39,272 nucleotides of DNA, taken from contig CAYVKI010000005.1 in NCBI GenBank assembly GCA_964452075.1, positions 1 to 39,272 of the forward strand, given 5' to 3'. The notes under the pieces are model-generated. The model saw nothing but the letters and a program-made list of their open reading frames with translations. It did no database searches and was not told where the DNA came from. Each line of letters opens with the position of its first letter. Positions within the stretch are counted from its first letter, which is position 1. Below, in pieces: positions 31,894-34,797 of the stretch. A program made the translations under genes and the position numbers. This stretch comes from an uncultured Rhizobium sp. GTDB lineage: Bacteria; Pseudomonadota; Alphaproteobacteria; Rickettsiales; UBA1997.

Positions 31894-34797
31894 ATGTCAA
31901 AAAAAATCGCATTAATCGACGGATATGGCTTTGTATTTCGCGCCTATCATTCACTTCCACCACTTACCAGAGCAGATGGAACGCCAGTTGGAGCTGTTTA
32001 CGGTTTTGTAAACATGCTAATAAAATTACTCGCTAGTTTAGATGTAACTCACGCAGCAGTGATTTTTGATTCTGGTTCAAAAACATTTCGTAACGACATT
32101 TTTCCAGATTATAAAGCCAATCGTCCGCCCTGCCCCGAAGATCTTAAACCGCAATTTCCCATCGTGCGCCAAAGTGCCGAAGCATTGAATTTGGCGATAC
32201 TCGAAAAAGTTGGCTTTGAAGCTGATGACATAATTGCCACACTTGCCAAACAAGCTGAAAAAGATGGTTTTGAAGTTTTAATTGTTTCTTCCGACAAAGA
32301 TTTGATGCAGCTAATCACAGAGCGCGTTTCAATGTATGACGCCATGAAAAATCGCTTGGTTGGAATTGCTGAAGTAAAAGAAAAATTCTTGGTTGAGCCA
32401 AATAAAGTTTTAGACGTTTTGTCACTTATGGGCGACGCTTCAGACAATGTTGCTGGCGTTAGGGGAATTGGCCCAAAAACCGCTGCAGAATTAATAAATG
32501 AATTTGGATCGTTAGAAAATATTTTTCTAAATGTAGATAAAATAAAGCAGGAAAAACGTCGGCAAATTTTAACTGAAGGAGAAGAATCAGCAAAACTTGC
32601 TAAAATTTTAATTTCTTTAAAAGAAGATGTTGAGCTTGGAATTACCGCAGAAGATTTAAAAGTTCAAAGCTTAGAGCCTTATAAGTTAGTGGCTTTTTTA
32701 GAAGAACAAGGTTTTAGATCTTTGGTCACCAGAATTAAAAAAGAATTTGATATTTCAACTTCACTTTCCACAGAAGAAAATGAAAAAAAAGATATAGCAG
32801 AAATTTCCGTCACTTCATTTTCCAAAGTAAAATTAACCGAAATAAATTCGCAGGAAATAGTTAATAGACTTAATAAAGAAGCGATTCAAAACGGAATCGT
32901 CACAATAGATTTTCAACGAGATTTTTTTACAATTTCAACTAACAAAGTTGGCGATTCACCTCAAGAAATTTTTTATTTTGAATCTAAAAATTCTAAAAAC
33001 TCAACAAGCCAAGCTCCGAGCTTAGACTTATTTAGTTTTGAAGAAGAGAAAAACATCATCAAAGATGGTGAGGTTTTTGATCTAACGATATTGGATAAAA
33101 TTCTTTTTGACGATTCAATTAAGAAAGTTTTTTTTGATGCTAAAAGTTTTTTAAAAATCGCAAGAACCCCTCACCCCAACCCTCTCCCACAAGGGGAGAG
33201 GGAGCATACCGATATCGATTCTCCTCTCTCACAAGGCAAAAAAGGGCTTAACACATCGCTCGCTCTAGCTCCCTCTCCTCTTGTGGGAGAGGTTTGGGGT
33301 GAGAGGTTGCGTACTCGCATCACCTTCGAAGATGTTTCATTAATCAATCACCTTCTAACCTCATCAACCAAAAATGATCTGCGCGAGTTGATCGATTTTA
33401 ATCTAAATGAAAACATCGAAGAGCTTGGATTTGGAAAGTTTTTTGCCGAAATTGACAAAAATCGTGAACCAGATTTTTCACAAGAACCGCAAAAAAAAGC
33501 CGAGTTTTTTGCTTTTAGAAATTTTGCAATTGCTCAACTTTATAAAATTTTCTCTCCAAAAATTCTCACCGAAAAACTTTCAGAAGCTTACAACTCTTAC
33601 GAAAAACCTTTACTGCAAATTCTTGCTCAAGTTGAAGAATCTGGAATCAAAATCGATGTCGAGAAATTACACAATTTATCTCAAGAATTTGGGGAAAAAA
33701 TTAACAATTTAAGCGGCGAAATTTATGAAATCGCTGGAACAGAATTTAACATCGCTTCGCCCAAACAACTTGGGGAAATTTTGTTTGAAAAATTAGGTTT
33801 AGATTCATCAAAAAAATCTAAAAAAACCGGCGCGCTTTCAACTGGAGTTGGAGTTCTTGAAGAGCTTGAAGAAGAAGGTCACCCAATAGCACGAAAAATT
33901 TTGGATTTTCGCAAATTCTCCAAACTTAAAAACACTTACACCGACTCTTTGCCTAAAGAAATCAATGCAAAAACCAGTCGCGTTCACACTCATTTTTCAA
34001 CAACCTCAACAATTACAGGAAGGCTTAGTTCGAGCCATCCAAACCTGCAAAACATTCCAATAAAAAGTTTGGAAGGTCAAAAAATTCGCGAGAGTTTTAT
34101 TGCCACCAAAGATCATTTATTAATTTCTGCCGACTATTCACAAATTGAGCTTCGAATCATTGCCCACGTTGCAAAAATCGATAATTTGATTGCCGCTTTT
34201 AAAGAAAATAAAGACATTCACCGCATTACGGCGAGTCAGGTTTTTGGCATTCCCGAAAGCGAAATTGACGATGCGACGCGTTCAAAAGCCAAGGCAATTA
34301 ATTTTGGAATTATTTATGGAATTAGTGCTTTTGGTTTAGCGCGACAACTCAACATTTCTCGCCAAGACGCCGCAGAATATATTCGATCATATCTTGTCGC
34401 CTATCCAGGAATTGATTCTTATATGAAAAACACCGTTGAAACAGCGCGCCACAATGGTTTTGTGCAGACTTTTTCAGGTCGAAAATGCTTCATTTCGCAA
34501 ATCAACAATAAAAATCCAATAATTCGCAACGAAGCCGAACGCCTCGCAATTAACGCTCCAATTCAAGGAAGCGCAGCGGACGTAATTAAAAAAGCGATGA
34601 TTCGTTTAAATAAAAAATTCATCGAAGAAAAAATTCAGGCAAAAATTATTTTACAAATTCACGATGAATTGATTGTGGAAGCTCCAAAAGATGAAGTTGA
34701 AATTGTGACGAAAATTCTAAAAACAGAAATGGAAAACGCGGTAAGTTTGGACGTGCCTTTGGCAGTTGATGTAAAGGTTGGTGAGTTTTGGAGATAA
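31894..34797 (+). CDS. polA: DNA polymerase I
   Basis: 967 aa. 5'-nuclease N-terminus (LIDGYGFVFRAYH, SSDKDLMQL, GVRGIGPKTA). Polymerase motifs A (LISADYSQIELRIIAH), B (RSKAKAINFGIIYG) and C (QIHDELIVE). It contains a 48-codon in-frame repeat-element insertion. Confidence 0.95.
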   Translation: MSKKIALIDGYGFVFRAYHSLPPLTRADGTPVGAVYGFVNMLIKLLASLDVTHAAVIFDSGSKTFRNDIFPDYKANRPPCPEDLKPQFPIVRQSAEALNLAILEKVGFEADDIIATLAKQAEKDGFEVLIVSSDKDLMQLITERVSMYDAMKNRLVGIAEVKEKFLVEPNKVLDVLSLMGDASDNVAGVRGIGPKTAAELINEFGSLENIFLNVDKIKQEKRRQILTEGEESAKLAKILISLKEDVELGITAEDLKVQSLEPYKLVAFLEEQGFRSLVTRIKKEFDISTSLSTEENEKKDIAEISVTSFSKVKLTEINSQEIVNRLNKEAIQNGIVTIDFQRDFFTISTNKVGDSPQEIFYFESKNSKNSTSQAPSLDLFSFEEEKNIIKDGEVFDLTILDKILFDDSIKKVFFDAKSFLKIARTPHPNPLPQGEREHTDIDSPLSQGKKGLNTSLALAPSPLVGEVWGERLRTRITFEDVSLINHLLTSSTKNDLRELIDFNLNENIEELGFGKFFAEIDKNREPDFSQEPQKKAEFFAFRNFAIAQLYKIFSPKILTEKLSEAYNSYEKPLLQILAQVEESGIKIDVEKLHNLSQEFGEKINNLSGEIYEIAGTEFNIASPKQLGEILFEKLGLDSSKKSKKTGALSTGVGVLEELEEEGHPIARKILDFRKFSKLKNTYTDSLPKEINAKTSRVHTHFSTTSTITGRLSSSHPNLQNIPIKSLEGQKIRESFIATKDHLLISADYSQIELRIIAHVAKIDNLIAAFKENKDIHRITASQVFGIPESEIDDATRSKAKAINFGIIYGISAFGLARQLNISRQDAAEYIRSYLVAYPGIDSYMKNTVETARHNGFVQTFSGRKCFISQINNKNPIIRNEAERLAINAPIQGSAADVIKKAMIRLNKKFIEEKIQAKIILQIHDELIVEAPKDEVEIVTKILKTEMENAVSLDVPLAVDVKVGEFWR
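33165..33308. mobile_element. GC-rich nested palindromic (MITE/RPE-like) element inserted in frame in polA
   Basis: The 41-nt arms at 33165-33205 and 33268-33308 are inverted repeats matching at 38/41 positions. The left arm contains a perfect 9-bp stem with a 5-nt loop. Total length is 144 bp, or 48 codons, with no stop. GC content is sharply higher than in the flanks. Confidence 0.75.

What the first reader, a model, noticed from the sequence alone, without database searches (positions are those of the whole stretch)
33165..33308. 144-bp GC-rich nested palindrome inserted in frame inside DNA polymerase I
Positions 33165-33205 (aacccctcaccccaaccctctcccacaaggggagagggagc) and 33268-33308 (gctccctctcctcttgtgggagaggtttggggtgagaggtt) are 41-nt inverted repeats. 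The reverse complement of the left arm matches the right arm at 38/41 positions. The left arm also folds on itself (ccctctccc-acaag-gggagaggg, a perfect 9-bp stem). A third partial copy of the core (ctcctctctcacaagg, 33221-33236) sits in the 62-bp spacer. The whole unit is 144 bp, or 48 codons, with no stop. PolA therefore reads through it as ..FLKIA-RTPHPNPLPQGEREHTDIDSPLSQGKKGLNTSLALAPSPLVGEVWGERL-RTRITFEDV.. The element is much more GC-rich than the surrounding AT-rich gene, which suggests foreign or selfish origin. A by-eye alignment to E. coli Klenow places it in a loop after the Exo II-equivalent segment (KVFFDAKSF vs GQNLKYD). That 3'-5' exonuclease domain appears to have already lost its catalytic carboxylates (IDFQRD vs FDTETD). 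A dispensable domain would explain why the insertion is tolerated. In behaviour this resembles Rickettsia palindromic elements, which insert in frame into essential genes. The sequence, however, is a different GC-rich family.
Basis: partly seen in the sequence, partly recalled or inferred. Interest (0 to 1): 0.7.

Follow-up and report, generated by a model that had tools for sequence, protein, structure and literature searches.

The report
Triplex-motif repeat doublet inside polA
A 144-bp palindrome read through in frame inside the DNA polymerase I gene of an AT-rich alphaproteobacterium is an inserted pair of a known bacterial repeat (boxC/PIT/"triplex motif"), and tracing its relatives showed that this decades-old orphan repeat regularly brackets a small DUF559 endonuclease gene, a link I could not find in the literature.

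Summary
In detail: 41-nt arms at 33165-33205 and 33268-33308 are 93% complementary, each holds an inner hairpin, and the 144 bp is read through by polA in the only stop-free frame of six.

The segment is an insertion. About 110 PolA orthologues have a short loop there. Only the 91% sister (102-bp version) and a 99.3%-identical independent assembly carry it.

Each arm is a unit of the boxC/PIT/TM_ECO "intrastrand triplex motif" repeat (Holder 2015), reported as always intergenic in E. coli. The left arm matches the published pattern exactly.

The same doublet subfamily sits in frame in a CCA-adding enzyme gene of a relative whose polA site is empty, and in a RecG-like gene elsewhere. Single units lie inside AlaRS and ABC-transporter genes of AT-rich bacteria.

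AlphaFold2 models the insert as a disordered loop (pLDDT <50) in a vestigial exonuclease-fold domain, and it is decaying.

New lead: units flank DUF559 (YcjD/Vsr-like) endonuclease genes. This held for 5 of 5 in fetched loci and 4 of 4 extra genes on both sides, with a unit next to ycjD in E. coli K-12. In two cases the whole module is in frame inside host proteins. The polA element looks like an ORF-less derivative. Mobilisation by DUF559 is inferred, not shown.

The parts
31894..34797 (+). polA (DNA polymerase I, 967 aa), the host gene. It has a 5'-nuclease domain, a vestigial 3'-5' exonuclease-fold middle domain and a polymerase domain.
   Evidence: ORF and translation. Pfam PF02739, PF01367 and PF00476 only. 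The PDB profile matches positions 4-279 and 512-919 only. Foldseek TMt is 0.85-0.88 to Bst and Klenow large fragments.
33165..33205 (-). Left arm, a complete boxC/PIT/TM_ECO triplex-motif unit read on the minus strand: CCCTCTCCC-CTTGT-GGGAGAGGG-TTG-GGGTGAGGG at 33168-33202. Its C-rich tail faces outward.
   Evidence: Exact match to the published pattern CCCTCNCCC-N3-6-GGGNGAGGG-N3-GGGNGAGGG (pattern from PMC4666352). Inner 9-bp hairpin (I19). 41/41 identical to an arm in L283.
33206..33267 (+). 62-nt spacer. It holds a partial third core (33222-33243). The direct repeat CTCTC(C/T)CACAAGG (33182-33194 and 33224-33236) bounds the 42 bp that L001 lacks. The last ~20 nt (…CTCGCTCTAGCT) are homologous to the spacer of the L283, L298 and L299 doublets.
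   Evidence: (D2).
33268..33308 (+). Right arm, a degenerate triplex-motif unit on the plus strand: CCCTCTCCt-CTTGT-GGGAGAGGt-TTG-GGGTGAGaG, with 3 mismatches to the pattern. Its G-rich tail faces outward.
   Evidence: (I1). L297 has one mismatch fewer (CCCTCTCCC).
33163..33309 (+). Approximate extent of the net insertion relative to empty-site orthologues. There are 53 residues between LKIA and FEDV against 4 in orthologues, so +49 codons. The exact junctions cannot be resolved, and no target-site duplication was seen.
   Evidence: Protein and DNA alignments. Flank comparison of five insertion sites.

Best explanation
The segment is a dead or decaying, ORF-less, tails-outward inverted doublet of the boxC/PIT/TM_ECO 'intrastrand triplex motif' repeat family. 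It entered polA (net +147 bp) in the common ancestor of the window organism and its 91% sister.

It landed in the loop between helix 416-422 and strand 478-480 of a vestigial 3'-5' exonuclease-fold domain. It happened to be in the only stop-free frame and a multiple of three in length. It has since been carried as a disordered 48-49-residue Pro/Gly/Ser-rich loop with no function of its own, that is, as a tolerated passenger.

**Shown:**
- membership of the repeat family;
- filled versus empty sites in two host genes of one lineage;
- other in-frame copies;
- disorder and location in the model;
- faster evolution and internal deletion.

**Inferred:**
- The insertion happened by the same process that spreads these units elsewhere.
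- That process is driven in trans by the DUF559 (YcjD/Vsr-like PD-(D/E)XK) endonuclease that full-length relatives carry between the same units.
- Selection then kept only in-frame, surface-loop insertions, because AT-rich compact genomes leave little intergenic room.
For: **Family.** The left arm matches the published TM_ECO pattern exactly (pattern and E. coli table in PMC4666352). Inverted doublets are a described configuration, with 5 sites in E. coli K-12.

**Insertion.**
- Of the 70 closest PolA homologues printed from an alignment of 120, only the window protein and P0002 carry this element. Most of the rest have a 4-residue loop at that position, and a peptide scan of all 120 found TM-encoded motifs only in those two.
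- L002 has a clean empty site at DNA level.
- P0002/L001 has a 102-bp version, with a 42-bp deletion between direct repeats.

**Real sequence.** L297 is an independent assembly.

**Repeat family in this lineage.**
- L283 comes from the same assembly as L002. It has a doublet with a 41/41-identical arm and homologous spacer end, inside a PolyA_pol-head (CCA-adding) gene.
- Orthologues of that gene mostly lack the insert, and a 77% relative shares it.
- A compact doublet of the same subfamily lies in frame in a RecG-like ORF (L298), and two more look intergenic.

**Other in-frame units.** These lie in AlaRS (L213) and in an ABC ATPase (two units) and an ABC-2 permease (L288).

**Passenger status.**
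- pLDDT is below 50 for residues 426-475, against 87-93 for the flanks.
- The insert is 74% aa-identical to L001, against 93% for the rest of PolA.
- The right arm is degenerate, and L001's left arm is truncated.

**DUF559 link.**
- In PriA (L287) and a radical-SAM protein (L289), units flank an in-frame DUF559 ORF.
- 5 of 5 DUF559-like ORFs in 2.55 Mb of fetched loci lie within 205 nt of a unit.
- 4 of 4 further DUF559 genes from other phyla have units on both sides.
- 16 of 120 DUF559 homologues have unit-encoded peptides at the domain edges, against 2 of 120 PolA proteins.
- E. coli K-12 ycjD lies 168 nt from published TM #9, and a unit-like hairpin overlaps its stop codon.
- The DUF559 ORFs in L287 and L289 are AT-rich (GC 0.23-0.33), yet their flanking units keep the canonical GC-rich sequence. 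This argues for constraint on the units.
Against: - Only one copy lies in the 39-kb window, and no DUF559 gene is in the window, L001 or L002. Multi-copy status in this exact genome is therefore not shown.
- No target-site duplication or conserved target was seen, so the insertion chemistry is unknown.
- The DUF559-bearing examples mostly have tails inward, while the window doublet has tails outward. L287 and E. coli #17/#18 are also tails-outward. The exact relation of ORF-less doublets to gene-bearing modules is unresolved.
- Only about 2% of units in the fetched loci are near a DUF559 gene.
- Holder et al. found no association with mobile elements and proposed replication and repair instability instead.
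- No nuclease activity of any DUF559 protein on these units is known to me.
- Collection scans were capped at about 120 rows, so counts are lower bounds and samples are not random.
Confidence: 0.8

Rival explanations
1. The doublet was copied into polA without any element-encoded enzyme. The triplex- or hairpin-forming units stall replication, and template switching, gap repair or illegitimate recombination with another unit-bearing locus pasted the sequence in. DUF559 genes merely tend to lodge in, or be retained at, the same unstable sites.
For: Holder et al. link these motifs to local instability, small deletions and 'palindromic' partial deletions that keep a hairpin. The L001 version shows just such a deletion between direct repeats, with hairpin potential kept. 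No target-site duplication was seen. Most units have no DUF559 nearby. ycjD sits at a rearrangement-prone site in E. coli.
Against: Near-identical 29-41-nt units occur in many phyla and at many unrelated sites, including AT-rich genomes. That is hard to get from local slippage alone. Units flank DUF559 genes on both sides in inverted orientation in 4 of 4 sampled cases, like terminal repeats. Units stay canonical while the enclosed ORF drifts to AT-rich.
Confidence: 0.3
2. The insert has been co-opted. One option is that the 41-bp RNA duplex in the polA mRNA acts as a regulatory or processing site, for example an RNase III target or a translational pause between domains. Another is that the Pro/Gly-rich loop has a role in the protein.
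For: The hairpin is very stable (-85 kcal/mol, z = -10.5). The frame and length have stayed a multiple of three in three assemblies. L001 keeps long-range pairing despite its deletion.
Against: Closer and more distant orthologues do without it. The peptide is the fastest-evolving part of the protein and is predicted to be disordered. The arms are accumulating mismatches. Other lineages carry unrelated palindromic inserts in the same loop, which points to tolerance rather than function.
Confidence: 0.08
3. It is an ordinary lineage-specific loop expansion, or an assembly chimera, that happens to be palindromic.
For: This PolA loop varies in length among orthologues.
Against: Three independent assemblies carry it. 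The arm occurs 41/41 identical in another gene of a related genome, and as an exact match to a published repeat pattern. Chance expectation is 0.00.
Confidence: 0.02

Closest known systems
boxC / PIT elements / TM_ECO G/C-rich intrastrand triplex motif (Bachellier 1990s; Hoyne & Maher 2000; Holder et al. 2015, PMC4666352)
   Same: The unit sequence and geometry are the same: C-stem, loop, G-stem, 3-nt loop, second G-stem. The left arm is an exact pattern match. Units are dispersed and multi-copy in Proteobacteria. They occur as inverted doublets. Internal deletions preserve a hairpin.
   Different: The family is described as always intergenic in E. coli, with no link to mobile elements and no known function. 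Here the doublet is inside an essential gene, translated in frame, in an AT-rich alphaproteobacterium. It has a longer spacer that shares homology with other doublets. Relatives of the units bracket a DUF559 endonuclease gene.
Rickettsia palindromic elements (RPEs; Ogata et al. 2000; summarised in PMC10969869)
   Same: Both are palindromic elements of about 100-150 bp inserted in frame into unrelated housekeeping genes of AT-rich Rickettsiales-like bacteria. Both are read through as extra surface peptide, and both show presence/absence among close relatives.
   Different: This is a different sequence family: GC-rich triplex-motif arms that are widespread far beyond Rickettsiales. RPE families are Rickettsia-specific, and no associated enzyme is known for them.
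REP / REPIN doublets with their RAYT transposases
   Same: Short hairpin units occur singly and as inverted doublets that fold into one long hairpin. A small minority flank a single-copy nuclease-type gene, while most are ORF-less. No target-site duplication is seen.
   Different: The flanked gene is a DUF559 PD-(D/E)XK (Vsr-like) endonuclease, not an IS200/IS605-type Y1 (HUH) transposase. The unit sequence is unrelated to REPs. REPINs are extragenic.
MITEs
   Same: Small, non-autonomous, terminal inverted repeats, dispersed, sometimes in-frame within genes.
   Different: No target-site duplication was detected, and no related IS with a transposase. The arms are themselves hairpins.
Free-standing homing endonuclease genes and inteins inserted in essential genes
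   Same: DUF559 modules sit in frame inside PriA and a radical-SAM protein. They also sit wedged between genes of operons (trpC/trpF, hsdS/hsdM), as homing endonuclease genes do. From memory, Vsr-like folds are known among homing endonucleases (I-Bth0305I).
   Different: There are no splicing domains or intron. The window element has no ORF at all. Homing activity is untested.

Membership tests
boxC / PIT / TM_ECO triplex-motif repeats | Sequence pattern 5'-CCCTCNCCC-N3-6-GGGNGAGGG-N3-GGGNGAGGG (one stem mismatch allowed) | tested here: met
   Window 33168-33202 on the minus strand is an exact match, with chance expectation 0.00. The right arm has 3 mismatches, so it is degenerate.
boxC / PIT / TM_ECO triplex-motif repeats | Dispersed, multi-copy within genomes | tested here: inconclusive
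   There is one element in the 39-kb window, and the rest of this genome is not available. The feature is met in a related genome (L283 against L002, same assembly) and in many other genomes, with several copies per MAG.
boxC / PIT / TM_ECO triplex-motif repeats | Occurrence as closely spaced inverted pairs | tested here: met
   There are 5 such sites in E. coli K-12. Here the arms are 62 nt apart. The same layout occurs in L011, L013, L023, L033, L283, L298 and L299.
boxC / PIT / TM_ECO triplex-motif repeats | Intergenic location (as described for E. coli) | tested here: not met
   The element lies inside the polA ORF and is read in frame. This is a descriptive feature of the E. coli copies, not part of the sequence definition.
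boxC / PIT / TM_ECO triplex-motif repeats | The single strand folds into a purine-motif intrastrand triplex in vitro | not testable with these tools
   Needs CD/NMR as in PMC4666352. The left arm has the required mirror-repeat G-stems.
Rickettsia palindromic elements | Palindromic ~100-150-bp element inserted in frame in ORFs, with presence/absence among relatives | tested here: met
Rickettsia palindromic elements | Sequence homology to one of the RPE families of Rickettsia | not tested
   No RPE reference sequences were on hand. Rfam has no match. The arms belong to a different, named family, so membership is not claimed.
MITE | Terminal inverted repeats | tested here: met
   I1.
MITE | Target-site duplication flanking the element | tested here: not met
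   No shared direct repeat flanks the element in the window, L001, L283, L298 or L299. Divergence from the empty site limits resolution for polA.
REPIN/RAYT system | Inverted REP doublet forming one long hairpin | tested here: met
REPIN/RAYT system | Units flank a RAYT (IS200/IS605-like Y1 transposase) gene | tested here: not met
   The gene found between units is DUF559/PF04480. RAYT genes were not specifically searched for.
Intein / homing-endonuclease insertion | Splicing (Hint) domain, or an encoded endonuclease within the insert | tested here: not met
   The insert is 48 aa, disordered, with no domain. DUF559-bearing relatives exist elsewhere (L287, L289), but not in the window.

The most novel reading that the evidence does not exclude
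The boxC/PIT/TM_ECO triplex-motif repeats have been an orphan repeat family since the 1990s, with no known origin, mobility or function. On this reading they are the terminal inverted repeats (or homing-site halves) of a widespread, unrecognised selfish element. Its autonomous form is a ~110-aa DUF559 (YcjD, Vsr-like PD-(D/E)XK) endonuclease gene. ORF-less doublets and solo units are its abundant non-autonomous derivatives. Five of the six frames of a unit are stop-free and encode Pro/Gly/Ser-rich linkers. The element, with or without its nuclease, can therefore persist in frame inside essential genes (polA, priA, alaS, recG, cca) in AT-rich compact genomes across phyla.
Probability: 0.4. Interest if true: 0.8.

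Novelty: new variant of a known kind. Interest (0 to 1): 0.65.

Why it matters
The repeat itself is known, but three findings are not in the literature I could search.

1. **Coding-region residence.** The repeat can live inside coding sequence, translated in frame, in essential replication and translation genes. This shows that RPE-like colonisation of genes is not peculiar to Rickettsia's own elements.
2. **Evidence of mobility.** Clean filled and empty sites in two genes of one lineage give direct evidence that these units are mobile. Earlier work found no link to mobility.
3. **A candidate enzyme.** The consistent bracketing of DUF559 endonuclease genes by the units offers a concrete, testable enzyme for a repeat family whose spread has been unexplained for about 30 years. 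It also suggests a first function for E. coli YcjD and the large DUF559 family.

On the practical side, such inserts inflate and distort annotated proteins in MAGs. They also mark loops that tolerate insertions.

Tried and rejected
**Searches that led nowhere**
- Rfam at gathering threshold on the whole window gave nothing. At E-value threshold on the element it gave only spurious miRNA/snoRNA-like hairpin matches.
- Looking up the window's PolA by exact sequence to find its source contig failed; it is not on record.
- Pairwise and profile sequence searches against the PDB could not place the insertion on Klenow. The middle domain does not align by sequence. Mapping rests on the AlphaFold2 model, Foldseek and weak Pfam hits.

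**Methods that misled or were limited**
- My first 'ORF-cover' statistic on GC-rich viral loci gave meaningless long frames, for example 4284 aa in L054 against the real ORF list. I used it only for AT-rich loci, and there I confirmed it by Pfam.
The prefix I had taken for lineage-specific was not. Counts are lower bounds.

**Ideas considered and rejected**
- A TCGCA target-site duplication around the element would break the reading frame on excision, so I rejected it (reasoning).
- I looked in the window for an empty copy of L283's host gene, to make a reciprocal test. The gene is not in the window.
- I asked whether P0013's insert at the same loop is a decayed copy of the same element. It is not; it belongs to a different palindromic family.
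- Ten hits upstream of pilin-like genes in gut MAGs may be leader or intergenic sequence in paralogues, so I did not count them as in-frame insertions.
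Full report
**1. The observation**

The sequence is as described.
- The repeat finder reports arms 33165-33205 and 33268-33308: 41 nt, 93% complementary, 62 nt apart (I1).
- The left arm has an inner perfect 9-bp hairpin (I19).
- A third partial core lies in the spacer (D2).
- Arm-derived patterns with up to 3 mismatches occur only at these two places, and are expected 0.00 times in shuffles.
- The element is 55% GC in a 35.7% GC window.
- ORF 31894-34797 encodes a 967-aa DNA polymerase I that reads straight through it.
- Only one of the six frames across the 144 bp lacks a stop, and it is the polA frame.
- As a single strand, the 144 nt folds into one long hairpin: RNA -85.1 kcal/mol, z = -10.5; DNA -42.9 kcal/mol, z = -8.1.

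**2. It is an insertion and it is real**

A search with PolA returned thousands of relatives. Sources that name them mostly call them 'Rickettsiales bacterium' MAGs.

In an alignment of the best 120, almost all read …FFDAKSFLKIAxT-NSFEDVSLINHLL… with 4 residues where the window has 53.

Only P0002 (91% identical) has a related insert, which is shorter. At DNA level:
- L002 (79% relative) shows a clean empty site.
- L001 (P0002) has a 102-bp version. It lacks 42 bp bounded in the window by the direct repeat CTCTC(C/T)CACAAGG.

A subfamily-specific pattern scan of metagenomes found L297. This is an independent contig with the same polA (21 differences in 2904 nt) and the same 144-bp element with 2 SNPs. 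Assembly artefact is therefore excluded, and the insertion predates the split of the window and L001 organisms.

**3. What the arms are**

The hairpin-plus-tail unit is not lineage-specific.
- A 23-specified-base version occurs in 63 viral or proviral contigs with GC from 0.38 to 0.70. The stems are invariant and the loops vary.
- A literature search on the string led to Holder et al. 2015 (PMC4666352). The unit is the G/C-rich 'intrastrand triplex motif' TM_ECO, earlier called boxC and PIT element. It is defined as CCCTCNCCC-N3-6-GGGNGAGGG-N3-GGGNGAGGG.
- The window's left arm, read on the minus strand (33168-33202), matches that pattern exactly. The right arm is a copy with three mismatches.

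According to that paper:
- there are 3610 copies in 262 proteobacterial genomes;
- E. coli K-12 has 23 copies, 'always located intergenically', five times as inverted pairs;
- there is no association with mobile elements, and no promoter or terminator activity;
- a triplex forms only as an isolated strand in vitro;
- the copies are statistically linked with local genomic instability, including partial deletions of palindromic pairs that keep a hairpin.

The L001 deletion is of exactly that kind.

**4. Other copies, and in-frame behaviour**

Hosts included Bradyrhizobium and many soil Alphaproteobacteria, Planctomycetota, Gastranaerophilales, several gut MAGs, Chloroflexota and Nitrospinota. 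One contig was binned as an archaeon.

The key hit is L283. It is a contig of the same assembly (GCA_964461905.1) as L002, the genome whose polA site is empty.
- It carries a tails-outward doublet whose arm is 41/41 identical to the window's left arm.
- Homology extends into the spacer.
- The doublet lies inside a 487-codon ORF with a PolyA_pol head domain, a CCA-adding enzyme.
- Most orthologues of that enzyme lack the insert, while a 77% relative shares it.

So one element subfamily shows filled and empty sites in two different genes of one lineage.

The metagenome scan added a compact doublet (22-nt spacer) in frame in a RecG-like ORF, and two doublets that look intergenic.

In AT-rich hosts, single units lie deep inside Pfam-supported ORFs. 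One is in AlaRS, at aa 279 within the class-II core domain. Two are in an ABC ATPase, and one is in the adjacent ABC-2 permease.

Hits upstream of pilin-like paralogues in gut MAGs may be leaders, so I did not count them.

**5. Why polA tolerates it**

- **Disorder.** An AlphaFold2 model built from a 42-sequence alignment (mean pLDDT 80.9) gives pLDDT below 50 for residues 426-475. The flanking helix 416-422 and strand/helix 478-489 score 87-93.
- **Fold.** The model superposes on Bst and Klenow large fragments with TM-score 0.85-0.88, normalised to the target. The middle domain therefore has the exonuclease fold.
- **Lost sequence signal.** By sequence the domain is unrecognisable. None of the 120 listed homologues has PF01612. 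A profile of the family matches PDB Pol I chains only in the 5'-nuclease and polymerase domains. With the insert removed, the domain gives only sub-threshold hits: PF22619 (E = 0.033, spanning the junction) and PF01612 (E = 0.049, ending at the junction).
- **Catalytic residues.** Extending the alignment without gaps puts F538 and R542 opposite Klenow Y497 and D501. This is inference.
- **Separate proofreading gene.** A separate DNA_pol_A_exo1 gene lies a few genes downstream in L002. The window ends just before the syntenic position.
- **Faster evolution.** The insert is 74% aa-identical to L001, against 93% for the rest of PolA and 88% for the rest of the middle domain.
- **A permissive loop.** The loop accepts other elements as well. 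P0013 (69% relative) carries a different 144-nt palindrome there.

**6. The DUF559 link (beyond the original finding)**

Two of the AT-rich hits had an unexpected neighbour.
- In a Gastranaerophilales PriA (L287), the order is host, unit, a ~110-aa DUF559 (PF04480) ORF, degenerate inverted unit, host. All of it is in one frame.
- In a radical-SAM protein (L289), the order is inverted unit, DUF559, unit.

I tested the association in four ways.
1. tblastn with these two domains against all 295 loci held (2.55 Mb) found five DUF559-like ORFs. All five lie within 205 nt of a unit. Only 8 of 386 units are near one.
2. Of 120 DUF559 homologues from the protein database, 16 contain unit-encoded peptides. 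These are always at the domain's C-terminal edge (aa 112-119) or N-terminal edge (aa 10-15). The control is 2 of 120 for the eight-fold longer PolA set, and those two are the window protein and its sister.
3. I fetched four further DUF559 genes chosen because they lack such peptides. Their contigs are from a Nitrospirae MAG, a Desulfococcaceae MAG, an Actinobacteria-labelled MAG and one unnamed assembly. Each is wedged between unrelated genes, such as trpC/trpF and hsdS/hsdM. All four are flanked on both sides by triplex-motif units in inverted orientation, tails inward, within about 10-30 nt of the start and stop codons.
4. In E. coli K-12, ycjD is the annotated DUF559 gene. It lies 168 nt from published TM #9. 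A unit-like hairpin overlaps its stop codon, and a duplicated fragment of its 3' end lies between the two.

In L287 and L289 the DUF559 ORF is AT-rich (GC 0.23-0.33), yet the flanking units keep the canonical GC-rich sequence. This suggests selection on the units themselves.

Literature searches for DUF559, YcjD, and triplex motif with endonuclease found no paper that makes this connection. What is known:
- YcjD-like proteins are PD-(D/E)XK nucleases related to Vsr (PMC1189080).
- ycjD occupies the site where the eef operon is missing in some E. coli phylogroups (PMC12817139).

**7. Mechanism**

Shown:
- a known repeat doublet was inserted into polA;
- it is translated, by ORF continuity in three assemblies;
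- it sits in a disordered loop of a vestigial domain;
- it is decaying;
- the same subfamily has inserted elsewhere in the lineage;
- units bracket DUF559 genes.

Inferred:
- DUF559 is the enzyme that moves or copies the units.
- ORF-less doublets are non-autonomous derivatives, analogous to REPINs and their RAYTs.
- In-frame copies are the survivors of selection in gene-dense AT-rich genomes. A single unit is stop-free in 5 of 6 frames and encodes Pro/Gly/Ser-rich linker-like peptides (frames read).

Unresolved:
- the insertion chemistry, since no target-site duplication was seen;
- how tails-outward doublets (window, L287, E. coli #17/#18) relate to the commoner tails-inward gene-bearing arrangement;
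- whether the 41-bp mRNA duplex affects polA expression.

The main rival for the mechanism is enzyme-independent copying by replication template switching or repair at these structure-prone motifs, as Holder et al. favoured.

**8. Comparison and verdict**

It is a member of the boxC/PIT/TM_ECO family by the family's sequence definition. It departs from the described intergenic habit.

It behaves like a Rickettsia palindromic element (about 150 bp, in frame in housekeeping genes; PMC10969869), but I do not file it as one.

It resembles REPIN/RAYT in organisation, but the associated gene is a different kind of nuclease.

I rate the finding itself as a new variant of a known kind, with interest 0.65.

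The most novel reading not excluded is that these repeats are the ends of a DUF559-endonuclease selfish element. I give it about 0.4. The association is strong, but the enzymology and direction of causation are untested, and my literature view is limited to open-access text.

Noticed in passing
window 39085-39265: A 24-nt tandem repeat (consensus TTGTCACCCCGTCGAGTGGGTATT, 7.6 copies, 79% matches) runs to the end of the contig, just after the GH3 gene. This is probably why the assembly stops here. In L002 the syntenic position holds a stand-alone DNA_pol_A_exo1 gene.
   Followed up: partly
L300 11285-11428 (polA of P0013, 69% relative): A different 144-nt palindromic element (arms CCGTCATCCTTGG…CCAAGGATGACGG, -62.8 kcal/mol) is inserted in frame at the same PolA loop. 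So this loop has been colonised independently by another repeat family.
   Followed up: partly
CCA-adding enzyme orthologues P0243-P0247, P0251, P0264, P0272 (alignment): At the loop that holds the triplex-motif doublet in L283, other relatives carry inserts with recurring peptides …PRNKCGVT… and …CHPALVAGS/CHPVFTTGS…. This looks like a third in-frame palindromic repeat family in these AT-rich alphaproteobacteria.
   Followed up: no
L287 4213-4660 and L289 5250-5700: A whole DUF559 (PF04480) endonuclease domain, bracketed by triplex-motif units, is embedded in frame inside PriA (between the 3'BD and helicase domains) and inside a radical-SAM protein in AT-rich gut bacteria. It resembles an intein-less in-frame endonuclease insertion.
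   Followed up: partly
L295 (E. coli K-12 NC_000913.3 1351030-1351840): Published TM #9 lies downstream of ycjD (DUF559). A second unit-like hairpin (CCCTCGCTCTTTCAGGGAGAGGG) overlaps the ycjD stop codon. A ~23-nt piece of the ycjD 3' end (GAATATTCTCCAGCACCGTCTCC) is duplicated between them, suggesting a remnant of a second copy.
   Followed up: partly
L302 1280-2000: A DUF559 gene sits between trpC and trpF of a tryptophan operon. It has four tandem triplex-motif units upstream and two downstream, in inverted orientation.
   Followed up: partly
L002 17037-17648: A stand-alone 203-aa DNA_pol_A_exo1 (3'-5' exonuclease) gene lies a few genes from polA in the relative. It may supply in trans the proofreading that the degenerate PolA domain has lost.
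   Followed up: no
L234 7735-7775: A triplex-motif unit lies at the 3' end of an HlyD-family gene, on a contig binned as a Methanomethylophilaceae archaeon (GC 0.30). This is either a mis-binned bacterial contig or cross-domain spread of the unit.
   Followed up: no
L191, L211, L226, L229, L241, L248, L253 (RGIG8805) and L236, L238, L285 (Gastranaerophilales): Units recur 20-60 codons upstream of, and in the same open frame as, the prepilin-type N-terminal motif (AFTLAEVLITLGIIG…) of many pilin-like paralogues. It is unclear whether they are translated leaders or 5' untranslated regions.
   Followed up: no
L283 430-575: The spacer of the doublet in the CCA-enzyme gene contains about three tandem ~45-nt repeats, each ending in a half-unit (…GAACTCGG·T·A·CTCCCTCTCC…). 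They encode the repeated peptide KE(I/V)YSELGLAPS. So doublet spacers can grow by internal duplication.
   Followed up: no
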